Of a stretch of 33,188 bases of DNA, positions 2,970 through 31,521 are shown piece by piece. A program made the position numbers and the translations under genes. Within the stretch, counting starts at the first letter, position 1. Every line of letters begins with the position of its first letter. The notes beneath the pieces were generated by a model. That model was not told the origin of the DNA and made no database searches. It saw only the letters and a list, made by a program, of their open reading frames with translations. Source of the DNA: a virus; UHGV virus genome UHGV-0218401, one strand, 5' to 3'.

Positions 2970-3451
2970 GACAGCAGCCCTCCCACCGTTTTACTGATAT
3001 CGCTTAAGGCAGACGTTGCCGTATCCTGCAAATTATTCAGCTGCGCACTGAGATCACCGAACATATCGGACAGGGATTCATCCACCCGTTTGAGCGACAG
3101 CGTGAACTCAATCCGGCGCGGCATACCATCGCGGAAAAACTCCGTTTTAGTCTGATTCAGCCCCTCAATCACATAAATGCCGTAAATCGTGCCGCTGCCT
3201 TCAATCAGGGGCCATGCTTTTCCCTGTTCTGCCATCTGCTCCAGAGCCAGCAACGACAGCCTGCCGCCCGTTATCTCCGGCATAAGAACACCAGAAAGCG
3301 TCAGCATGTCGTTGTCCGGTCCCAGAAACTGCATGGACGGACGTCGGTTGACCCGGCTGTTTGCCGCATGTCGCCAGCTGCGTTGATACTGCAGTTCCTG
3401 ATACGGCACAGTGCGCAGCATAAACACGTACAATCCCAGCACCATCATCAT
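2966..3451 (-). CDS. U: Tail protein U (P2 gpU-like)
   Basis: 161 aa; ATG overlaps the T stop (ATGA); position between T and D as in P2. Confidence 0.85.
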   Translation of the reverse strand: MMMVLGLYVFMLRTVPYQELQYQRSWRHAANSRVNRRPSMQFLGPDNDMLTLSGVLMPEITGGRLSLLALEQMAEQGKAWPLIEGSGTIYGIYVIEGLNQTKTEFFRDGMPRRIEFTLSLKRVDESLSDMFGDLSAQLNNLQDTATSALSDISKTVGGLLS

Positions 3452-6400
3452 GCGTCGTATCCCCCCTGATCGCTGTAGTTACTCCTGGCTTTTGCCTTCA
3501 GCCTGCGTTCACGTTCATCAAGCTGGCGGGCCACCTCCCGCGCAATATCCTGCGCACTTTGTCCTGGCTGCGTCTGAATGATGATCTGCGTCGGTGCCTC
3601 AATCCGTTGAACGGGCGGCACAGTGGCTGCACGACTCACCATCGCTTCGCCGCCTTTCGAGGGAAGTGCCAAAGGATGCAACGGTGGAAGCTCTGCAGGC
3701 GCGGCAGCAACGCCCATCATTCCGGCAACAACGGCAGCCAGTGAAGCTGTATTTCTCCGGCTGGTCACATTTGCCGGGCCGTTAACAATTTCCGGCCCGT
3801 TTTCACCGACGATGCCAAACTGCCCGCGCGGGATATAGCCGCCGCTGTCATACATCCCCGCAAAGCCATATCCCCATGACGGAAAACCACCCGATGGCAT
3901 CATCACTTTACCGTCTGCATTCACCGTCGCAGGTTGCTGACGCGTCACGCTTTCCGGCAGTTTCGCCTTTGCGGCCTCTTTACTGACAATGCCGAGTTTT
4001 TCCAGCAACCAGGATACGCCGGATTTCAGGGAGTCCAGCGGATGCATGACCATATTCAGCCCTTCCGCCAGCGCCTCCCCGAATCGTCGCCCCATTGCCG
4101 CTGCGCTCTGCAGTTCGGCAGAAGTCGACTTAACGGGCGTCAGCAAATCAGTAAACCAGCCCCACAGCGCCTGCACTTTGTCGCCAATCCACTGGAACAC
4201 AGGCTTAAGCGGTTCGAATGCGGCACTGATGGGTCCTGCCGCCGCTTTGAATCCTTCCACCACGCCACCGAGAAATGCGGTGATGGGTTGCCAGTATTTC
4301 CAGACAACCAGCGCCACGCCCGCCAGTGCAGTAACCACAAGACCTATCGGACTGAGCAGAGCACCTAACAGACCAGATACGGCATACAGGGCAACGCGCA
4401 GCATCGCCAGTGGACCAGATGCCAGTACTCGCAGCACCGTGCCTGCGGCGGCCAGTCCACCGCGCAGTACCGCCAGAGGATTCATAAACATCACAGCAGC
4501 AGCACGTAAACCGGATAATCCAGACCGGAACAGTGCAACCGGCGCACCTGCTACAGTTTTCAGGACATTCCCCGTCAGTGATGCCGTGCGACGCAAAGAC
4601 GACAACGGAGCAGTAAGTAAACCCGCTGCGTTGCCCGATGAAGCAAGCCCGCGTCGCAGCAGTGCCAGTGGAGCGCCAGCTAACCAGGACAACGCGCTGC
4701 TGGTTCGTGTTACTGCTGCGGTAACGGAAGGTAACGTTTTGATACCCAGCACAGAGAATCCCAGACGGATGACTGCCAGCGGCCCCAGCACTGCAGCCAG
4801 CGCCACCGCTAAGGTGCCGAGGCCTACGGTAACCGCAGCCACAACAGCCGCTACTTTCATCAGTGTGCCTGTCAGTTCCGGGTTAGCTTCCACCCAGCGG
4901 CGCAACGCCCCCGTGATGCTTTTCACCGTGTACAGAATATCCATCAGCGGCTGGCGCAGCGTTTCGCCCAGGCTGCTGAAGGTGTTCTGCGCTCCGGTTT
5001 TGACCAGCAACCACTGAGCAGAAAGTGAGTCTTTGTTGATGTCGGATTCTTTCTGCATGGAACCGAGCGCATCATTGCCCGCTGTCAGTTTTAGCTGGCG
5101 CTGCAGTTCCGGAAGGTTGTTTGCCAGTTTCGCCGCGTCATCACCAAACTCTTTACCAAACAACATGGTCATGGCAGACAGACGCTTGTCCTGCGGCAGT
5201 GCGTTCACCTTCTCCAGCACACGCTGGATAGTTCCCATCGCATCCTTCGTCATCTGCTTTTCAATCACTTCAGGATTGAGTTTCAGCAGATTCATCCCTT
5301 CAAAGAAACTCTTGCTTTGCATGGTGGCAATGGACAATTCACGCACCATCGCGTTTGCTGCACTGGCTGCAACCTCCGGTGCAGCGCCCAGTGTCAGGAA
5401 GGTGGAACCCAGCGCCGCCGCTTTACGATAATCCAGACGGTCAGCCACACCGCCCAGACGCTGCATCACATCAATGATGTCCGCCCCTTTCGACATGGCG
5501 TTATCATCCAGAAAGTTCAGCGCATCACCGAGCTGTTCAATATTGCGGGTTGGTATTTTGTAGAGCTGGGCGATTTTCCCCAGACTTTCTGACAGTTCAT
5601 CCGCTGGCAGCTCAAAGGCTGTTGCCGCTTTTGCTGCCGTACTGGCGAAGGCCAGCAGGTCACGTTTCTGGTCCTCCCAGCTGTCGTCAGGGTTTGCCAC
5701 ATTCATGCGCGCACCACCTTCAACCAGTGCGGCGAAGTCCACAGCACCGTTTTCCATTGGCAGCTGTTCACTGGCAGCTTTGATGGCATCCTGCATTTCG
5801 TAAAAACGCGCAGTGCGGTTGCCATTATCGTCACGCAGACCATTGACCTGCTTTGCCACACCTTTCATGGCATCTTCCATGCTGGTATAGCTTTTTACCG
5901 CCGCCATCACTGGCGCGCCCATTGCCAGCCCTGCAGCCGTGGTGGTGGCTCCGGCTCCTGCGATGCGATCGCGCACTTCAAGCCGTCTTGAGTATTGTTC
6001 TCTGGCAACGTTCATCCGTGCCTGTTGTTCACCCAGACGTTTAAGTGCTTTTTGCTGGCCCTCCAGTGCCTGACGAGTTTCTTCGGCATTTTTCTTAAGT
6101 TCTCGCTGGGCACTACTGAGTTGTCTGGTATCAATCCCTGATTCTTTAAGTGCCTGACGTTGTCTCTGGACCGCCCCCAACAAGCCGTTATAGGTCTGCT
6201 GAAGTTCCTGTACTCGTGTTTTGGCCTGACTGAATAACTTTGCTTGCGCGGCGGTTGGCCTGTTAGTGGCAGCAAATTGTGTGGCGAGTTTTGCCGCCTC
6301 TTCGCGGGCTGTGTTCAGGTTGTTGGCTGTTATGGCTAGTTGCGAGCGCGTCTTGCGAAATTCATCAATTCTGCCAGCCTGCTTATTCAGTTCTTTGAGG

Positions 6401-24044: not shown

Positions 24045-24716
24045 TTAAAAACCAAGCTCATCTCTGATTCTTGGGAATTTTTTCATTACTCGAATATCAG
24101 TTAATAAATGCCAACGCCAAAAAACAGAAAATGGATATGATACATTACACATTGGCTTTAGCTTATTCTTGGCCTCTTGGATTTCTTGTTCTGTGCTTCG
24201 ATCACTGACAAGTTTCATTCTCCAACCAGTAAAGTAAAACAATTCATCTTGTAACTTCTCTGAGAGATTTGCTCTTGTAATGCCCCTCAACCCCGTACTC
24301 GAAGAGTTAAAACACTTATCTAATAATTTGACTGTATTTAAAACCTTTCTACTTGGTCTTTTTCTTCTTGGGTATACTTGAACACCACTCGTTATAGCGT
24401 TCCCTGCGAGATGAACAATCTCACTGAAAACATCAACATCACTCTTTGTGCAATCAAGTAAGTTTTCAAAAGAATCACTTTTAATACTATTGCATCGACT
24501 GCAAGCTAAAAATAGATTGTTCCAATCATATTTGAGCTCATCAAGATCACGATGTGGAATAAAATGTTCTATCTCTGGATCCATAAGATTACCTTGCTCA
24601 CAGAGATAACATTTTCCATGAAATATTTCGTCTAAAGCATTTACAACTGTTTTATGGTTATATACTTTTCTCGACAAGCATTGAGGTGCAGGAATGTTTC
24701 TAGTAACATTAAACAT
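24045..24716 (-). CDS. ptuB: HNH endonuclease, Septu PtuB-like
   Basis: Motifs CYLCE...EHFIPH...NLFLACSRCNSIK (Cys pairs and His/Asn of an HNH fold); 223 aa; overlaps the upstream ATPase gene; AT-rich. My manual indexing is 1 nt off the ORF track here. Confidence 0.7.
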   Translation of the reverse strand: MFNVTRNIPAPQCLSRKVYNHKTVVNALDEIFHGKCYLCEQGNLMDPEIEHFIPHRDLDELKYDWNNLFLACSRCNSIKSDSFENLLDCTKSDVDVFSEIVHLAGNAITSGVQVYPRRKRPSRKVLNTVKLLDKCFNSSSTGLRGITRANLSEKLQDELFYFTGWRMKLVSDRSTEQEIQEAKNKLKPMCNVSYPFSVFWRWHLLTDIRVMKKFPRIRDELGF

Positions 24717-25947
24717 CGTCTTCCCTTTCGCTATAATCTAAATATTTACTCTTAGCGATCATAAAAGCTGCTTTTGAACTTTTATCAAGAAAATCAATAC
24801 TCTTCTGTAACGTTTTCATTATAGAATGAAATCTATCGTCGAAGAGATTATTTTCTACTAAAGTCATTAATTCTTTAACTAATGCATTTAGCTTATCCGA
24901 AGATACATCCTCACCCAACAATCCCTTTATAATTGCTGTGTAAGAATACAATGATAAATCACCCATCTGATCCAATGTTGAGAGATTAAATATAATCGCA
25001 TCAGATACTGATTGGATTACGAAAGGTGAATGCGTAGAAACAATAAATTGTATTTGCGGAAAAGATGATGAAAAAAAACTAAATACTTTCTTTTGCAATG
25101 TTACATGAAGATGAGCATCAATTTCATCAATAAGTACTATCCCTGTCATATCATGTTTTCTGATTTTATCAAGCTCTGCTTTTATCAATAAATCAGTATA
25201 AATAGAAAGAATTGATGAAAAACCAGATGACAACTTATCAAGTCCAAATGGTTCCTTATTATTTTGTAAAAGATAGATTTTCAACTTGTCGAGATCAAAA
25301 TCCATTCTAATACTTTCATCTTCAAAAAGTTCTTTTAAGTCATCATTAATACTCTCAATAATATCAAAGGCTCTTTTATAGTCATCATCCTTGCCCACTC
25401 CCTTACTGACTAAAGCATAATTCCACAATGTAACTATGTATCTTTCAAAATACATACCAGCATCAATCTTAGAATTATTTCTCTGTGCGTTCCCATACTC
25501 AGTTAACAACAAATCGAGGCTGCTAATCTTACCATCATTTTTTATTTTCGCTTCTCGAATAGCAGGAAATAATCTTATAATTGATTTTTTCTTTTTTGCA
25601 GCAACCCTGAAATCAACCACATCATTAAAAGTAATATCAAAGCTCTCAAATTCTTTTAATTTTTCTTTCAGTCTCTCAATTTCTTCGTTTAAATAGCTAT
25701 AATTACCATCCCCTCTATTTGAATACTTTAAGTTTTCTTGACTGGAATTCAATTCCTTTTGTAGCTGCTCCTTAGTATAAGGATCATGTGAATTAATCGA
25801 TTTTTCTATAAACTCATAAATATTCTCGATCAACCTAGTTTTACCAGAGCCATTATCTCCTGATATTATTAGATTCTTACCATCAAGATTTAATGTGTAA
25901 GGCTCATCGTTCCTTTTAAAGAAGATAGTTTCGATGAAATGTCGCAT
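24709..25947 (-). CDS. ptuA: P-loop ATPase (AAA_15/21-like), Septu PtuA-like
   Basis: Walker A GDNGSGKT, Walker B VLIDEIDAHLH, and STHSP after Walker B; start taken at the ATG at 25947 preceded by GGGAGGA (the ORF track starts 5 codons earlier); 412 aa. Confidence 0.7.
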   Translation of the reverse strand: MRHFIETIFFKRNDEPYTLNLDGKNLIISGDNGSGKTRLIENIYEFIEKSINSHDPYTKEQLQKELNSSQENLKYSNRGDGNYSYLNEEIERLKEKLKEFESFDITFNDVVDFRVAAKKKKSIIRLFPAIREAKIKNDGKISSLDLLLTEYGNAQRNNSKIDAGMYFERYIVTLWNYALVSKGVGKDDDYKRAFDIIESINDDLKELFEDESIRMDFDLDKLKIYLLQNNKEPFGLDKLSSGFSSILSIYTDLLIKAELDKIRKHDMTGIVLIDEIDAHLHVTLQKKVFSFFSSSFPQIQFIVSTHSPFVIQSVSDAIIFNLSTLDQMGDLSLYSYTAIIKGLLGEDVSSDKLNALVKELMTLVENNLFDDRFHSIMKTLQKSIDFLDKSSKAAFMIAKSKYLDYSEREDDV

Positions 25948-26037
25948 TATTCCTCCCGTCATACTTAACAGCTTTTAGATAATATGACATTACATGTTAG
26001 ATTTCATCCGTTTTGTGAACATATCCACTGCCGCGCG

Positions 26038-26056
26038 CTCGTATCCCCGCCACGCC
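26038..26056. other. Probable cos site (19-nt cohesive end region, 186/P2-like)
   Basis: Minus strand reads GGCGTGGCGGGGATACGAG; the first 13 nt match the 186 cohesive end GGCGTGGCGGGGAAAGCAT as I recall it (P2: GGCGAGGCGGGGAAAGCAC), and are followed by GCGCGC. Confidence 0.5.
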
Positions 26057-26097
26057 TGCCCGCTTTATGTAGTGGTTTTCATGCACCTGCATGACAT

Positions 26098-26125
26098 GAG
26101 CAAAAGCCCGCCAGTTCTGGCGGGC
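26098..26125 (-). terminator. Rho-independent terminator downstream of the kinase cassette
   Basis: Minus-strand hairpin gcccgccag-aact-ggcgggc followed by TTTTGC. Confidence 0.45.
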
Positions 26126-26436
26126 CTTAACAAAAACGAGCCTCAAACGTTCATGCAAACTCATGCAGCATAGACATACACTACATCAACAGCATCCATT
26201 GCTATCATTTCCAGTTCGCTTCCTACAACATCATTGCGAATAGTTATGTTACCAAGCGGCTTTTTCATACCTTTTCGGCATGACACTTCAGACGCACCAA
26301 TACTGACGTGTAATGCTTCCCCCGCAACGTCAACCCACTTAATGGTAATTTAATGTAGTTGCATGAGACGAAAAAATCTCCATAGTTGACAGACTCTATA
26401 AATGCAGTATCACTAGCAAGCATGAATAAACATGCA

Positions 26437-27141
26437 TCATCTAACAGATACTTTTGCATAAATCAAAGGCCTATCCGAAGAGCCATTTTTACGTACGACC
26501 ACTCCACTGATATCATGGTTTTTACCAAGATCTCGTAATGAGGCGCACAATGCCTTGTTGACATATCCTAGATGATTGTCGTTTTTCGTTACTAATATGG
26601 CCAGCGGATCAACAGTATTGGTATCTTCATTGCGCAATATGACTTCATCACCAATTGATATCTCGTCAAGAGCTAGACGCCCTTCCTTAATCATGTGTCT
26701 CGTTCCGGCGACCTCCATGACATAATCAAAAGGTGGCCGAATAGAAGACAAGTCTGGGACAAAATAAAAACCATCACTAGCCACTTTTCCGCCAGTACAA
26801 GCGAGCAAAACGAAGTCATTCTCTCTAAAATCAGCAGGAAGACGAAACGTCAGCAAGTAATCGGCAAAATCTTCTCTTTTCCTAGAGGGTAACCTTCTTG
26901 AAAAGGTTTGCATAACGTCTTTGCGATGAGTCGTAACTTTTATGTCAAAAGCAGGAAAACCGTGAAAGCCTTTATCCACAGCTTTAGCAAAATCTTTGCT
27001 ATCCGTAAGATAATTAAACTCGTAGCCTTCAGACTCATCTTGAAGAAGTTCACCAACGACATAGCGAGAGCCGCCGTCGGTCGGTTGCCATGTCAGTAAG
27101 AGCCTACTTGGCATGGGAATTTTTTCTATTAAGATAGTCAT
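26437..27141 (-). CDS. Hypothetical protein (234 aa), third gene of the exonuclease-kinase cassette
   Basis: ATG overlaps the kinase stop (ATGA), implying translational coupling; AT-rich; no motif I can recognise by eye. Confidence 0.6.
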   Translation of the reverse strand: MTILIEKIPMPSRLLLTWQPTDGGSRYVVGELLQDESEGYEFNYLTDSKDFAKAVDKGFHGFPAFDIKVTTHRKDVMQTFSRRLPSRKREDFADYLLTFRLPADFRENDFVLLACTGGKVASDGFYFVPDLSSIRPPFDYVMEVAGTRHMIKEGRLALDEISIGDEVILRNEDTNTVDPLAILVTKNDNHLGYVNKALCASLRDLGKNHDISGVVVRKNGSSDRPLIYAKVSVR

Positions 27142-28049
27142 GAAGTAACACCTTTAATCAGTTCAATACGCATGTTTGTTACACGAACAATCCATGCAGC
27201 ACGTTCTCTAGTCAGCGGAACAGGGCAGTTTATTTCCGTCAACTCCGCAAAAGTTGAGTCCCAAAAGTCATGGTTCAAACGAGCCAGTCTTTCAGCTACC
27301 CGCTGTTTTAATTCTTCTTTTTTATCACAAAGTTCTTTGATTAACTCTAAATGACCTAATCTCTGATACTCATCTTTGCCCAGAGTCTTACGCAAATGAT
27401 GCTTTCCCCGGCTAACATGCTCCCTGAGTCTATGATCGGTCCAATCAGCAACATGTTCCGGAAAACGTTCGTAGCATAAGCTCGTACCATTATCGAAAAA
27501 TGGTGCAAGCTGACACTCGCTGGTTAAAGGTGAGAAGATAAACCCCCAGTTTTCTTGATGTCTATCTGTATTACCTATTACTGCGTCAAAGAGAGCCATA
27601 TTCTCCAACCACTCAACATAGTCAACTTTAAGAGCTTTCGCGATAATCCTCAGCCCTTCAATGGAATGCTTAGCTCCTTTCTCACGATCAAAATTTGGAT
27701 CTCTTCGAACAAAGTAATCACCAGCGGGAGCAAATTTCTCATAATCTTTATGATGAAACCACTCAATGAGGGCCCCGCAAAACGTATGCCCCAAATCATT
27801 AGTCTTTAACGAAGGAACTGCTTTGGGGACATTAAAACCAAGCTGCAATCCAATCCTGTAGGCAACGATCTCACACCAAAATTGATCTGGGTATTTTTTA
27901 ATACTTCTCTTAAAAAGATACGGCCACGATGCTTTGATACCATGGGGGGCAACATCAGGGGAAATAACCAATGCCTTAGAGCGAGCACCAACAGGATACT
28001 GTGCGAAAACATCTAGCTCAGTCCAATAGGTTACATCTAAGCAATCCAT
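27138..28049 (-). CDS. HipA-like Ser/Thr protein kinase (HipA_C-type core, 303 aa)
   Basis: Catalytic-loop signature VIGNTDRHQENWGF (compare HipA ...GATDGHAKNFS); AGGA RBS; ATG start; 15-nt gap after the exonuclease gene. Confidence 0.65.
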   Translation of the reverse strand: MDCLDVTYWTELDVFAQYPVGARSKALVISPDVAPHGIKASWPYLFKRSIKKYPDQFWCEIVAYRIGLQLGFNVPKAVPSLKTNDLGHTFCGALIEWFHHKDYEKFAPAGDYFVRRDPNFDREKGAKHSIEGLRIIAKALKVDYVEWLENMALFDAVIGNTDRHQENWGFIFSPLTSECQLAPFFDNGTSLCYERFPEHVADWTDHRLREHVSRGKHHLRKTLGKDEYQRLGHLELIKELCDKKEELKQRVAERLARLNHDFWDSTFAELTEINCPVPLTRERAAWIVRVTNMRIELIKGVTS

Positions 28050-28064
28050 AGCTAAGTCCTATAT

Positions 28065-28610
28065 TTATTTTTTATTTAAATTCATATAGATGTGAGAAAC
28101 CTGTGCGATCTGAAATAAAACATCATCGAATGCTGTGTGCCTAATGCCAGTGAAATTTTTATCAGCATGAGAAAAAATTCCTTTGCTTTCACCAAGTGCT
28201 AAGATGGTTCTAACGTCAAGAGTATCTCTGAATGACCATGGGCAATCCAGACCCGCCTGTAACAGGGCATGATGCATGATCGTGCAGTCAAACTCTTTCC
28301 CGTTTCCCCACACTTTTACTCGGCCAGTACGATTATGAAGAATAAATGCCACAAATTCATTCAGAACCTCTAAAAGGTCCTTAGTGCCATCAAAATTTTC
28401 GTTTTTAGCTTCAGTACTTTGATTCATCCACCACTTTACAGTAGAGGGGGCAATGGTTCTGCCTGCTTGTTCATGATCAAGCGAAATAACTTGATAGAAA
28501 CCCGGACCAATCTCGCCAGTCTCCGGCACGAAAAAAGCCGCACCAACTGAAAGGATATAAGCTGTTTTTTCAACATCCAATGTTTCTATATCTAACATTA
28601 CATGATTCAT
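28065..28610 (-). CDS. DEDDh-type 3'-5' exonuclease (DnaQ/RNase T-like fold)
   Basis: Exo I MLDIETLD (D-x-E), Exo II VWGNGKEFD, Exo III H-x4-D in GIRHTAFDDV; ATG at 28610 chosen (ORF track begins at a TTG three codons earlier); about 181 aa. Confidence 0.7.
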   Translation of the reverse strand: MNHVMLDIETLDVEKTAYILSVGAAFFVPETGEIGPGFYQVISLDHEQAGRTIAPSTVKWWMNQSTEAKNENFDGTKDLLEVLNEFVAFILHNRTGRVKVWGNGKEFDCTIMHHALLQAGLDCPWSFRDTLDVRTILALGESKGIFSHADKNFTGIRHTAFDDVLFQIAQVSHIYMNLNKK

Positions 28611-28783
28611 AAGAAGCAATTGAAACCATTTAGTAAAAATTGAAAGCTATCACCACATTAATGCATGGCATATACATTTGTGGACGAAAACAAGTATTCT
28701 GATTATAACCCAAGTGAAAATCTCAAGTGTCGTAACTTTCACTCGGTTGTTTTCAGTTTCGAAAAACTACTGGGAAGATCCAT

Positions 28784-28954
28784 CTAGTGGTTGTATTCAT
28801 GAGCGCGAATTCTCGCCATCAGCTCATCAGTCAACTCAGAAACCCACTGCAGAGCCAGCCCCTTCTCTTCATCACTACACTCACTAGCCGCTACAAGCTT
28901 AAGAAAAAAATCAATGCGCTGGAGCTTCAAAGACTCCAAAAAATAGTCCTGCAT
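28784..28954 (-). CDS. Small ORF (56 aa) between A and the cassette, not in the ORF track
   Basis: ATG at 28954 with GGAGGAAAG RBS 6 nt upstream; translation MQDYFLESLKLQRIDFFLKLVAASECSDEEKGLALQWVSELTDELMARIRAHEYNH; stop TAG at 28784-28786. Confidence 0.3.
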   Translation of the reverse strand: MQDYFLESLKLQRIDFFLKLVAASECSDEEKGLALQWVSELTDELMARIRAHEYNH

Positions 28955-29106
28955 CTTTCCTCCTATGACACCACAAGCAACACTGTATGCACAACCACTG
29001 TTTATATTTACAGTATATAATAATCTTACTGATGTAAAACGTTTTTTACGTTCATCAGCCTGATATGCCTGGTATTATTAAGAGCACGAATTGTTAACCC
29101 ACGTGA

Positions 29107-31521
29107 TTAATACAGGTTCCGCCACTTATCATCTTCCTGCAAACGCTGGTTCCGATAGAAGATACGCAGGCCTGCTCCTGACGGAATACTGCCACCGCGA
29201 AGGAGCAAATCGACCTCTTTCTCGCTGCCATCAAATCCTCTTGACTTCAGTTCATAGACGAGCTGCTGACGCTGATACTCTGTAATTCGCTGTTTGTAGT
29301 CTTTACGCCGTTTCGGTTTCATCAGGCGTAATCTTGCTGCCAGTTCCTGGCGCTCTTTTTTGCTCATACTGTGCAGGTAATCGTGCAACTCCTTGTCATC
29401 CATACAGGTAATGTCAGTTCTGGGATCCCCATCTGTTGATTTATCTTTCTCCTGTTGGTTCAAATTTTCAGCAAGGGGACAGTTATTGCCACGAGTCCAA
29501 GGGGCGCAAGCGCCCTGGTCGGCTGCCGCCTCCTGAACGTCAACGGCCTTACGAACCATTTTCCACTTCACCGCATGAGTGCAGATCTTGCCCTCTGCAA
29601 TGGGTGACCAGATGCCATAAATACGAATACCGTGATCGCCATATGCGGTCGGTTCTTCGTTGATTTCATAAGCAGTTCTGATGAGGTGATATTTGCGGGG
29701 AACCAGTACGCCGCCCTGCTTCATGATGTAGGTGGCAAAACAACCAGCATCAGCAGCAGCCAGGATTGCATCAAGACGCGGGTTATCCAGTACCGGCGCA
29801 CCTGCTTTTTTGTCACCCTGTTGCCTTGCCGCCTGACCAGCCAGCAATCGCAGTTCACGGTAAGCCTGACGCCCCGGAATGCCAAAGAAGCGGAATTGCT
29901 GAACACGATGCAGAGACGCCCAGGCATTAACGTATTCAGCGTTATCACGCAGGGATTTACCCGTTTCCTTGCTGATCTCCCCAGCCAGACCACGCCCGTC
30001 AATGTTCTTACTGATGTATTTCGCGATATAGCTTGTTGGCGTACCTTTGCGCGGGTTTATCAGCTCAGACTTAAAGCGTGGTCCCGTGTTATTGCCCAGC
30101 TCCTCACGGTCTTCACGGATGGCAAACTTACGCAGTAATGCAGTGATGGCTCGGCGGTCTTTTTTACGCATGAAACACATGAGATGCCAGTGCACAGTAC
30201 CGTCATGATGCGGCTCAGCTACCCGCACGCCATACCAGCGCAACTCGGCTTTATGCATAGCCTTACGAAATGCAGCAAACATGCCGACCAGATAATCGCT
30301 ACTTTGTCTTACCGTCGCGTTTGTCCAGGTCGGGTTTGGTCTGCCGTTATTGAGCGTGGAATGGAAACGCGACGGACAGGTGATAGTGTAGAAAACGGCA
30401 CAGTCACTGCGCATTTCCGCGATAAGCTCCAGACCTTTAACACAGGCCATCATCTCATTGCGGCGATGCGCCGGGTTGCTGCTGCTGGCGTTTACCACAT
30501 CTTCCATATCCAGCGTGTCGCCGTCTTCGTTCACCAGTTCATGAGAACGAAAAAACTCCAGCGACTTACGGCGCTGCTCACGTTTATGCATCACGGCTTC
30601 ATAGCTGACATAGGGGGATGCTTTTTTGCTGACCAGGCAGACAGCACGCAACTGCTCTTCCCGCCATTCGCAACGCATCTTCCATAATTTCCGATACCAC
30701 CAGTCGGCACACAACATACGCGCCAGCGAACCCGGGATGAGTTCATAGGGCACTGGTTTGCGGCGGTTTCTTTTCCGACGAAGTTTCTCAAACGCAGGCG
30801 GGATAACATCCAGACGCAGGGTTTCCGCTGCCACCTTTTCCCATGTCTTGCGGATTTCTTCTGGCTTAACGTCATCGGTGGCATACAAATCACCACAAGC
30901 GTCCTCAAGACACATGCTCATATGCGCTGCTACCAGGGTGGACAGGCGTTTCACCTGATCCTGGCTCATTTCAGGCAGGATCAGCAGACCCTCCAGCCCT
31001 TGATGGCTTGCCATAAAACGGAAAGAAACAGATAGCTGACTGTCACGTACACAATCCAGTCGCTCCAGACATGGCTTAATCGTCTCACGCAAATAGCGGG
31101 AATAAGCCTTTGGCCTGCCCAGGCTGCTGAAGTATTCAATACGTTGCATCAGCGGCTTGCTGATATGGGAAGGCTGGGCGTTTACGTCCGCCAGAATGAC
31201 CATGTCCGGATTAAAACGCTGCTGCTCATGCGCCAGCTTTGCCCGGCTAATGAGCTTATCCTGCTCCATTTCGCGCTGGACAGGATCACGGGATTCATTA
31301 AAGAAATAACGCTCCCAGACCTGCTCACTCAGTGCCTCGCGGCGCAGTTGTTCCTGCTCGTTATCGGCAGCGTACAGAGTGATCAGGTTTGAAAGTGCAG
31401 ACTCCGGCGCAACTTCCGCCGGGTCCAGATAAGGGTTAATGGCCTTTTTCGAGCCGTTCCATGAAAATGCTGCGGCGGCCTCGTTAAAGCCGCTGCAATT
31501 GTTCATATCGTCATGACTCAT
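29107..31521 (-). CDS. A: Rolling-circle replication initiator (P2 gpA-like)
   Basis: HUH motif TVHWHLMCF and tandem-Tyr active-site region SYIAKYISK; ATG at 31521 with GGAG RBS (the ORF track starts at the GTG 2 codons earlier); ATGA overlap with the dam stop. Confidence 0.9.

What the first reader, a model, noticed from the sequence alone, without database searches (positions are those of the whole stretch)
26437..28619. Three-gene AT-rich cassette at the tin/old position: DEDDh exonuclease, HipA-like kinase and an unknown 234-aa protein
Between replication gene A and cos, where P2 carries tin and old, sits a compact minus-strand operon of three genes: a small DnaQ-like 3'-5' exonuclease with all three Exo motifs, a HipA_C-type Ser/Thr kinase with the GNTDRH..N catalytic loop, and a 234-aa protein with no motif I can recognise. 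The gaps are 15 nt and a 4-nt overlap, and a terminator follows the last gene. There is no HipB-like HTH antitoxin and no HipA N-terminal domain, so it is not a canonical hipBA or hipBST module. I do not recall any described antiphage system with this gene combination. Its location in a defence hotspot, its foreign base composition and the toxin-like kinase make it a plausible new abortive-infection or defence system. An anti-defence or toxin-antitoxin role is not excluded.
Basis: partly seen in the sequence, partly recalled or inferred. Interest (0 to 1): 0.85.

Follow-up and report, generated by a model that had tools for sequence, protein, structure and literature searches.

The report
Prophage HipA-type kinase module plus exonuclease
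A P2-like prophage carries a toxin-like protein kinase with a partner that has a DNA-end-binding domain, a pair already catalogued as a candidate phage-defence module (hipIN / PDC-M03); what appears unreported is a 3'-5' exonuclease gene fused to the front of the operon in this phage lineage.

Summary
The three minus-strand genes are real and lie where stated. All three can be assigned to families.

- **Gene 1** is a DEDDh exonuclease of Pfam family Rv2179c-like (E 5e-50).
- **Gene 2** is a short HipA-family kinase with intact catalytic motifs.
- **Gene 3**, the "unknown" 234-aa protein, is a HipS-like domain fused to a HIRAN domain. It therefore supplies the "missing" HipA N-terminal domain in trans.

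Genes 2 and 3 match the hipIN module predicted by Gerdes et al. (2021) and PADLOC candidate PDC-M03. I found no experimental test of it.

- **The pair works without the exonuclease elsewhere.** 74 hipIN loci with enough upstream sequence lack it, and many sit inside type I restriction-modification operons.
- **The exonuclease linkage is lineage-specific but stable.** In P2-like phages, 34 loci in six divergent sequence lineages keep the exonuclease 3-19 nt upstream. In some of them kinase and HipN are fused. The three proteins diverge in parallel.
- **The exonuclease is cargo, not backbone.** The block 26186-28777 replaces about 330 nt (dinI) in sister phages.

Best reading: a two-gene kinase toxin-antitoxin / abortive-infection core with a lineage-specific, co-transcribed exonuclease accessory. 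Verdict: new variant of a known kind, of moderate interest. It is not a categorically new three-gene system.

The parts
28065..28610 (-). DEDDh 3'-5' exonuclease, Rv2179c-like / T4 DexA-like family. It is 181 aa from the ATG at 28610. The mechanical ORF starts at the TTG at 28619.
   Evidence: Pfam PF16473 E 5e-50. PHROG 255 'exonuclease' E 3e-60. Weak PDB match to a 227-aa exodeoxyribonuclease, 8kel. Exo I, II and III residues are conserved. The start codon is inferred from homologues.
27138..28049 (-). HipI-type short HipA-family Ser/Thr kinase, 303 aa, without the HipA N-terminal subdomain. This is the predicted toxin/effector.
26437..27141 (-). HipN-type partner, 234 aa. The HipS-like domain covers roughly residues 1-130 (26752-27141). 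The HIRAN domain covers roughly residues 140-234 (26440-26724). It is the predicted antitoxin and DNA-3'-end sensor.
28611..28777 (-). Cassette-specific upstream region. It holds a perfect -10 hexamer TATAAT at 28707-28702 with no good -35. The 15-nt gap leaves no room for a promoter between the exonuclease and the kinase.
   Evidence: Sequence and pattern position. The consensus scan did not call a promoter here. The hexamer is conserved as TATAAT or TACAAT in close relatives. Promoter function is inferred, not shown.
26186..28777 (.). The inserted cargo block, holding all three genes. It is flanked by conserved P2-like backbone.
   Evidence: About 1100 E. coli genomes and 48 phage records share only 28778-29100. 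85 phage records share 26032-26185. In Klebsiella phage Kp4845-2 and Escherichia phage 500465-1 the two blocks lie about 330 nt apart, with dinI between them.
26103..26128 (-). Terminator-like hairpin, an 11-bp GC-rich stem followed by UUUU. It lies in the conserved backbone near cos.
   Evidence: RNA fold -22.6 kcal/mol, but z-score only -1.5. It lies within the conserved block 26032-26185.
26038..26056 (-). cos-like sequence GGCGTGGCGGGGA.... It marks the boundary between the gene A-cos cargo slot (this cassette) and the cos-portal slot (Septu).
   Evidence: A unique match in the window. The similarity to the P2/186 cohesive ends is recalled from memory and was not tested.

Best explanation
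**Core module.** The core is a two-gene hipIN module, which PADLOC lists as candidate PDC-M03.

- HipI is a short HipA-family Ser/Thr kinase.
- HipN, the partner, is a HipS-like domain fused to a HIRAN domain.

**Proposed mechanism.** All of this is inferred by analogy with HipBST, HipBA and the HLTF HIRAN domain.

1. [quoted passage not shown]
2. The HIRAN domain binds free 3'-OH DNA ends or short DNA fragments. These appear when another phage injects, replicates or degrades host DNA.
3. That binding relieves the inhibition.
4. The kinase then phosphorylates a translation factor, probably an aminoacyl-tRNA synthetase. The infected cell stops growing (abortive infection or superinfection exclusion).

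**Role of the exonuclease.** The DEDDh 3'-5' exonuclease is a lineage-specific, co-transcribed accessory and not an obligatory third component. Its most likely role is to act on the same ligand. It would trim 3' ends or oligonucleotides and so set the trigger threshold. That could also protect the prophage's own rolling-circle replication from self-triggering.

**Shown here:** the domain identities, the operon structure, the cargo status and the pattern of co-inheritance.

**Inferred:** toxicity, the kinase target, the trigger, any antiphage effect and the role of the exonuclease.
For: **Identity of the pair**

- Both PADLOC PDC-M03 models match, at E 4e-36 and 1e-36.
- The architecture matches the hipIN description in PMC8262856.
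- Structure models match HipT/HipA/CtkA, and HipS plus HIRAN.
- The kinase catalytic residues are invariant.
- The HIRAN motifs that contact the 3' end in HLTF align: G-x-R-[HY], N-x-x-D-x-x-A and G-[YH].

**Autonomy of the pair**

- The kinase lies immediately upstream of HipN in 68 of 80 genome loci, mostly with a 4-nt overlap.
- None of those 80 loci has the exonuclease.

**Defence context**

- The cassette fills the variable gene A-cos slot of a P2-like prophage, and a Septu system fills the next slot.
- 16 of the 80 hipIN loci lie directly downstream of hsdR-M-S.
- At least 13 of 54 upstream neighbours are restriction-modification genes.
- A Rhodococcus plasmid carries the pair inside hsdR-hsdS-[kinase]-[HIRAN]-hsdM.
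- A HipA-family kinase with a different partner (DS-6/HipAD) gives kinase-dependent phage defence (PMC13092281).

**Link to the exonuclease**

- 34 loci keep the exonuclease 3-19 nt upstream of the kinase.
- These fall into six sequence lineages, with both split and fused kinase-HipN forms.
- Identity to the window for exonuclease / kinase / HipN falls in parallel: 93/95/95, 84/91/93, 53/52/64, 41/38/47 and 38/41/46 %.
- In E. coli complete genomes the six with the exonuclease are the same six with hipIN.
- Nearly identical backbones carry different versions of the cassette, each with its own exonuclease (L216, L217).
- An unrelated DEDD nuclease (diDNase) sits next to HipA and HIRAN genes in Gram-positive bacteria (PMC11706625).
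Against: - I found no paper that reports an experiment on any hipIN or PDC-M03 module. Toxicity, antitoxin activity and defence are all untested.
- 74 hipIN loci with at least 700 nt upstream lack the exonuclease. These include an Aliivibrio P2/186-like prophage and a portal-adjacent locus, L232. So the exonuclease is dispensable for the core.
- The exonuclease family is a common stand-alone gene.
  - It occurs in 605 phage records.
  - All 80 of the nearest viral loci lack hipIN.
  - In Serratia it is a lone chromosomal gene.
  - One E. coli P2-like prophage has it in the early operon without hipIN.
- The exonuclease-linked HipN sequences form essentially one clade. The linkage may therefore come from a single acquisition that was then inherited as a block.
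- No promoter could be called with confidence.
- HIRAN could instead act in autoregulation or in targeting, not in sensing.
Confidence: 0.5

Rival explanations
1. This is an obligate three-component system. The exonuclease would be an essential part of a new defence system. For example, it could generate the DNA-end or nucleotide signal that HipN senses, or act as a second effector.
For: The exonuclease is linked in all 34 P2-like loci, with a 3-19 nt gap and no room for an internal promoter. The three proteins diverge in parallel. The linkage survives a kinase-HipN gene fusion. The exonuclease catalytic residues are conserved. An analogous DEDD nuclease + HipA + HIRAN cluster exists in Actinobacteria.
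Against: 74 hipIN loci lack any such exonuclease, and no other DEDD nuclease recurs next to them. Kinases as close to the window's (41-45% identity) as those of the fused, exonuclease-linked forms occur without it. PADLOC defines the candidate as two genes.
Confidence: 0.12
2. The exonuclease is a functionally unrelated passenger. It would be an ordinary phage exonuclease serving replication, recombination, nucleotide salvage or counter-defence. It entered the cargo slot next to hipIN once, and the two have since been inherited and exchanged as a block.
For: The family is widespread as a stand-alone phage and chromosomal gene. Another E. coli P2-like prophage carries one in its early replication operon without hipIN. 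The exonuclease-linked HipN sequences form one clade, which fits a single origin. Tight gene spacing is normal in phage genomes.
Against: Cargo in this slot turns over quickly: about 1100 E. coli genomes share the backbone but only 6 share the cassette. Even so, no exonuclease-only or hipIN-only derivative of this clade was seen in the gene A-cos slot among 34 loci that diverge to 38-47% identity. A separate DEDD nuclease family is independently associated with HipA and HIRAN genes. HIRAN domains and 3'-5' exonucleases both act on 3' DNA ends.
Confidence: 0.3
3. The module does not defend against other phages. It would be a toxin-antitoxin addiction module that stabilises the prophage, a persistence or stress switch, or a regulator of the phage's own lytic cycle. 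In the last case it would be read through from the early operon downstream of gene A.
For: HipA-family modules are classically linked to persistence and plasmid stabilisation (PMC8262856). The cassette is co-oriented with the early operon, directly after gene A and a small backbone ORF. No independent promoter could be called with confidence. Some hipIN loci sit in ordinary chromosomal contexts.
Against: The cassette occupies a variable slot next to Septu. Sister phages carry a TIR-domain gene in the adjacent slot. hipIN modules are repeatedly embedded in type I restriction-modification operons. A related HipA-family kinase system has been shown to defend against phage.
Confidence: 0.15

Closest known systems
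hipIN modules (HipI kinase + HipN), predicted by Gerdes, Baerentsen and Brodersen 2021 (PMC8262856); PADLOC phage-defence candidate PDC-M03
   Same: A short core kinase without the HipA N-terminal subdomain. The downstream gene encodes a HipS-like domain plus a HIRAN domain. The gene order is kinase then partner, with a 4-nt overlap. Both PADLOC models match strongly.
   Different: This version has a co-transcribed Rv2179c-like DEDDh exonuclease 15 nt upstream and sits in the gene A-cos slot of a P2-like prophage. Neither the 2021 description nor PDC-M03 includes a nuclease. The family itself has no experimental characterisation that I could find.
HipBST (E. coli O127 and Legionella)
   Different: There is no HipB helix-turn-helix gene. 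The HipS-like domain lies downstream of the kinase and is fused to HIRAN. The gene order is reversed.
HipL kinases (kinase + HipS-like + HIRAN in a single polypeptide; Gerdes 2021)
   Same: The same three domains. Relatives in P2-like phages carry exactly this fusion: 547-549 aa hitting HipA_C, Couple_hipA and HIRAN. They include Escherichia phage 899 and Yersinia phage GMG73.
   Different: In the window the domains are split over two genes. Whether the fused phage forms belong to the published HipL clade was not tested. HipL was described as monocistronic, whereas these follow an exonuclease gene.
diDNase-HipA-HIRAN gene clusters of Gram-positive bacteria (PMC11706625)
   Same: A DEDD-superfamily exonuclease directly adjacent to HipA-domain and HIRAN-domain genes, on mobile elements and near defence genes.
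   Different: The nuclease is a different subfamily. diDNases are NrnC-like dinucleotide-specific enzymes, solved with NrnC/Orn search models. Here it is an Rv2179c/DexA-like enzyme. The hosts are Actinobacteria and Clostridia, not a P2-like enterobacterial phage.
DS-6 / HipAD (PADLOC PDC-M66)
   Same: A HipA-family kinase with a non-HipB partner. Phage defence was shown experimentally and needs the kinase catalytic residue (PMC13092281; PMC12548924).
   Different: The partner carries DUF3037/DUF1829, not HipS-HIRAN. The window kinase matches PDC-M66A only at E 0.006, against 4e-36 for PDC-M03A.
P2 tin and old (cargo at the same phage position)
   Same: The same slot between replication gene A and cos in P2-like phages (established knowledge of the P2 map). 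Cargo there is variable and often defensive.
   Different: There is no sequence or domain relationship to this cassette.

Membership tests
hipIN (HipI + HipN), Gerdes 2021 | Short core kinase of about 300 aa with the HipA-type catalytic motifs and no N-terminal subdomain 1 | tested here: met
   [not shown]
hipIN (HipI + HipN), Gerdes 2021 | [quoted passage not shown] | tested here: met
   [not shown]
hipIN (HipI + HipN), Gerdes 2021 | Bicistronic arrangement with the kinase first and tightly coupled | tested here: met
   There is a 4-nt overlap in the window and in most of 68 loci. In the window and 33 other loci a third gene precedes the pair.
hipIN (HipI + HipN), Gerdes 2021 | Placement inside the published HipI clade of the Hip kinase tree | not tested
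hipIN (HipI + HipN), Gerdes 2021 | Kinase toxicity that is neutralised by HipN | not testable with these tools
   This needs expression experiments. The source paper also only predicts it.
PADLOC PDC-M03 (candidate defence system) | Adjacent genes matching the PDC-M03A and PDC-M03B models | tested here: met
   PDC-M03A matches at E 4.1e-36 and PDC-M03B at E 1.3e-36, and the genes overlap by 4 nt. The exonuclease matches no PADLOC model.
Canonical hipBA | HipB helix-turn-helix antitoxin gene, and a full-length HipA of about 440 aa with N-terminal domains in cis | tested here: not met
   No HTH protein is encoded in 26186-28777. The kinase is 303 aa and carries only the HipA_C domain.
hipBST | Tricistronic order hipB-hipS-hipT, with a stand-alone HipS of about 100 aa upstream of the kinase | tested here: not met
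   HipB is absent. The HipS-like domain lies downstream of the kinase and is fused to HIRAN.
Rv2179c-like DEDDh 3'-5' exonucleases (PF16473) | Profile match above the gathering score, with intact Exo I/II/III residues (D, E, D, H, D) | tested here: met
   The score is 170 bits against a cut-off of 27. D-I-E-T, W-G-N-G-x-x-F-D and H-x-A-x-D-D are conserved across the linked exonucleases.
diDNase-HipA-HIRAN cluster (PMC11706625) | The nuclease is an NrnC-like, dinucleotide-specific diDNase | tested here: not met
   The nuclease belongs to PF16473. Its only nuclease match in the PDB is a DexA-like exodeoxyribonuclease. No NrnC-named or diDNase-named chain matched at E <= 0.01. Substrate length preference cannot be tested here.
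DS-6 / HipAD (PDC-M66) | HipA-like kinase paired with a DUF3037/DUF1829 protein | tested here: not met
   The partner is HipS-HIRAN. PDC-M66A matches only at E 0.0059.

The most novel reading that the evidence does not exclude
The exonuclease, HipI and HipN form one sensing circuit for free DNA 3' ends or short DNA oligonucleotides.

- The HIRAN domain would detect the ends or degradation products made during infection and release a translation-blocking kinase.
- A dedicated 3'-5' exonuclease would clear background ligand, setting the threshold and sparing the prophage's own rolling-circle replication.
- The same logic would have arisen independently with diDNases in Actinobacteria. That would make 'DEDD nuclease + HIRAN sensor + Hip kinase' a recurrent immune design.
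Probability: 0.3. Interest if true: 0.75.

Novelty: new variant of a known kind. Interest (0 to 1): 0.5.

Why it matters
hipIN / PDC-M03 modules are widespread. This survey found them across Proteobacteria, in Actinobacteria, in phages and inside restriction-modification operons. Yet I found no paper that tests them.

- **It suggests a specific trigger.** The phage-borne version pairs a HIRAN domain, known in HLTF to bind 3'-OH DNA ends, with a 3'-5' exonuclease. That gives a concrete, testable hypothesis about what switches a Hip kinase on.
- **It is tractable.** The cassette is a 2.6-kb block in E. coli that can be cloned.
- **It would add to a small group.** If it defends, it would be another HipA-family kinase defence system, alongside DS-6/HipAD, and would have a different sensor domain.

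If the exonuclease turns out to be a passenger, the finding reduces to another instance of a catalogued candidate system in a known P2 hotspot.

Tried and rejected
1. **Kinase-HipN complex model.** I concatenated the two window proteins and aligned them with both sets of homologues (A4). MAFFT misaligned the HipN half: identity of P0002 to the query fell from 63% to 35%. I did not submit it and used the last structure job on the kinase alone. The natural fused proteins could not be submitted because they were not returned by the protein search.
2. **Promoter.** The consensus scan called nothing upstream of the exonuclease. Only a perfect -10 hexamer without a -35 was found by eye. The weak inverted repeats nearby are not convincing.
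3. **Non-coding RNA.** There was no Rfam match in 25900-29200 at E <= 0.1. A type III-like RNA antitoxin is therefore not supported.
4. **Exonuclease phylogeny.** A neighbour-joining tree placed the linked exonucleases in two groups, interleaved with stand-alone Serratia and lambdoid exonucleases. The deep branches are short and unsupported. I did not use this tree to argue for independent recruitment.
5. **A different third gene elsewhere.** Clustering of neighbours and a Pfam scan of 54 upstream genes found only restriction-modification genes and integrases. No nuclease partner recurred.
6. **Literature.** Searches for HipN/HipI, HipL + HIRAN, PDC-M03, HipA-like + defence system, and HipAD found no experimental work on this module. 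Several hits were false matches to the names Hirano and Hiranuma.
7. **NCBIfam.** It has no specific model for any of the three proteins.
Full report
**1. What is there**

The region holds three tightly packed minus-strand ORFs.
- The first is 184 aa from a TTG at 28619. Homologues point to the ATG at 28610, giving 181 aa.
- The second is 303 aa (28049..27138).
- The third is 234 aa (27141..26437).

The gap between the first two is 15 nt. The last two overlap by 4 nt. GC content is 0.39-0.43 across the cassette, against 0.50-0.55 in gene A and the structural genes.

**2. What the proteins are**

Gene 1 is an Rv2179c-like DEDDh exonuclease.
- Pfam PF16473 matches at E 5e-50, and PHROG 255 'exonuclease' at E 3e-60.
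- A distant PDB match goes to a 227-aa exodeoxyribonuclease, 8kel.
- The Exo I, II and III residues are conserved in all linked homologues.

Gene 2 is a short HipA-family kinase.
- Pfam HipA_C matches at E 3.6e-10.
- The AlphaFold model has pLDDT 91.3.
- The ATP-binding loop G-A-R-x-K, K47, the catalytic loop G-N-T-D-R-H-Q-x-N-W and the D-N-G motif are invariant in 45 homologues.

Gene 3 is not an orphan.
- In the profile alignment to HLTF, the motifs around the 3'-end pocket line up: G-x-R-[HY], N-x-x-D-x-x-A and G-[YH].

It is in fact encoded in trans by gene 3.

**3. The pair is already known on paper**

A short kinase followed by a HipS-like + HIRAN protein is the hipIN module that Gerdes et al. 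predicted in 2021 (PMC8262856). PADLOC lists it as phage-defence candidate PDC-M03. Both PADLOC models match here, at E 4e-36 and 1e-36, while the exonuclease matches nothing in PADLOC. I found no paper that tests hipIN experimentally.

HipA-family kinases have been validated in defence only with a different partner. That system is DS-6/HipAD, where the partner carries DUF3037/DUF1829 (PMC13092281; PMC12548924).

**4. Is the exonuclease part of it?**

*Evidence that the core is two genes.*
- I scanned one genome per species with a HipN profile, which gave 80 loci. The kinase sits immediately upstream of HipN in 68 of them, mostly with the same 4-nt overlap. None has an Rv2179c-like exonuclease.
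- The upstream neighbours are type I restriction-modification genes and integrases, not nucleases.
- A Rhodococcus plasmid carries the pair inside hsdR-hsdS-[kinase]-[HIRAN]-hsdM.
- Kinases 41-45% identical to the window's occur with HipN but without the exonuclease. One is in an Aliivibrio P2/186-like prophage, one lies beside a Vibrio filamentous phage, and one is in a Thiomicrorhabdus chromosome.
- In total, 74 loci with at least 700 nt upstream lack the exonuclease.
- The exonuclease family is a common stand-alone gene. It occurs in 605 phage records. All 80 of the nearest viral loci lack hipIN. In Serratia it is a lone chromosomal gene. One E. coli P2-like prophage has it in the early operon without hipIN.

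*Evidence that the linkage is not casual.*
- Across genomes, viral contigs and metagenomes, 34 loci carry the exonuclease 3-19 nt upstream of the kinase. Every one of them has P2-like context: gene A, the portal gene, or both. L087 is the exception in position, because its cassette lies beside the integrase and gene A is several kb downstream.
- They fall into six sequence lineages. Three have split kinase and HipN genes. Three have kinase, HipS-like and HIRAN domains fused into one protein of 547-549 aa. Escherichia phage 899 and Yersinia phage GMG73 carry the fused form, annotated as hypothetical.
- Identity to the window falls in parallel for exonuclease / kinase / HipN: 93/95/95, 84/91/93, 53/52/64, 41/38/47 and 38/41/46 %.
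- Among 5426 complete E. coli genomes, six have the exonuclease, and the same six have hipIN.
- Two metagenomic phages have gene A nearly identical to the window's, yet carry the divergent fused cassette with its own exonuclease (L216, L217). The unit that is exchanged therefore includes the exonuclease.
- On a HipN tree the linked forms sit in one clade of ten tips. This fits a single origin followed by long retention.
- A different DEDD nuclease family, the diDNases, has been reported directly adjacent to HipA and HIRAN genes in Gram-positive bacteria (PMC11706625).

**5. Cargo boundaries**

- About 1100 E. coli genomes and 48 phage records share only 28778-29100, which holds the small backbone ORF after gene A.
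- 85 P2-like phage records share 26032-26185. This block holds the terminator-like hairpin and overlaps the cos-like sequence.
- In Klebsiella phage Kp4845-2 and Escherichia phage 500465-1 these two blocks lie about 330 nt apart, with dinI between them.

So 26186-28777 is one cargo block, and it includes the exonuclease. The next slot, between cos and the portal gene, holds a Septu system here and a TIR-domain gene in phage 500465-1.

**6. Mechanism (inferred)**

This follows by analogy with HipBST, where HipS neutralises HipT. It also draws on HipA and HipT phosphorylating aminoacyl-tRNA synthetases, and on HLTF HIRAN binding 3'-OH DNA ends. These points are established knowledge, partly cited.
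1. [quoted passage not shown]
2. The HIRAN domain senses 3' DNA ends or fragments produced during infection.
3. The released kinase blocks translation, which aborts the infection.

The exonuclease acts on the same chemical feature, 3' ends. Its most economical role is to tune or reset that signal, or to protect the prophage's own replication. I rate the reading of a two-gene core with a functionally linked accessory at 0.5, an unrelated passenger exonuclease at 0.3, and an obligate three-gene system at 0.12. Separately, I rate a non-defence role (addiction, persistence or lytic-cycle control) at 0.15.

**7. Verdict**

The pair is a known but untested candidate family. As far as I could search, the exonuclease-linked P2-like lineage, with its split and fused forms, is not described. 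This makes it a new variant of a known kind, of moderate interest (0.5).

Noticed in passing
window 24045-25962 (minus strand): A complete Septu system sits in the next cargo slot, between the cos-like site and the portal gene. PtuA is 417 aa (PADLOC E 1e-121) and PtuB is a 223-aa HNH protein (E 1.8e-82). GC content there is only 0.29-0.36. The prophage therefore carries two separate cargo modules on either side of cos.
   Followed up: partly
L100-L109, L209-L217; Escherichia phage 899 (PV533660, L198 4128-5687); Yersinia phage GMG73 (OP880301): In several P2-like phages the kinase, HipS-like and HIRAN domains are fused into one protein of 547-549 aa (PHROG 26212, function unknown). The fused gene still follows the exonuclease. 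It is annotated as 'hypothetical protein' in the isolated phage.
   Followed up: yes
L006, L010, L017, L036, L043 and others; Rhodococcus plasmid NZ_CP088976 (L199 3079-4678): hipIN pairs without the exonuclease are often embedded in type I restriction-modification operons. They lie directly after hsdS, or between hsdS and hsdM.
   Followed up: partly
L087 (Logan ERR12342532 contig, 224-2430): One exonuclease-kinase-HipN trio (41/38/47 % identity to the window) lies beside the integrase of a P2/186-like phage and not between gene A and the portal gene. The contig ends 224 nt upstream of the exonuclease, so the exact slot could not be determined.
   Followed up: partly
L001 (E. coli DS26-1, NZ_CP035879) 3286-5711: The same trio, at 99.9% identity, is followed by an IS66-family element (ISEc47) and a DUF6953 gene where the window has Septu. 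The two slots therefore vary independently.
   Followed up: no
window 28784-28954 (minus strand): A 56-aa ORF directly after gene A belongs to the conserved backbone (PHROG 698, E 1.6e-33, function unknown). It is shared by about 1100 E. coli genomes.
   Followed up: no
L197 (E. coli LZSFT34, NZ_CP132728) 4315-5092: Another P2-like prophage carries a distant Rv2179c-like exonuclease inside its early operon. It sits next to a ParE-like toxin gene and a Dam methylase gene, with no hipIN.
   Followed up: no
L203 (Escherichia phage 500465-1, NC_049342) 4696-5643: A sister phage has dinI in the gene A-cos slot and a TIR-domain protein in the cos-portal slot.
   Followed up: no
[not shown]
   Followed up: no
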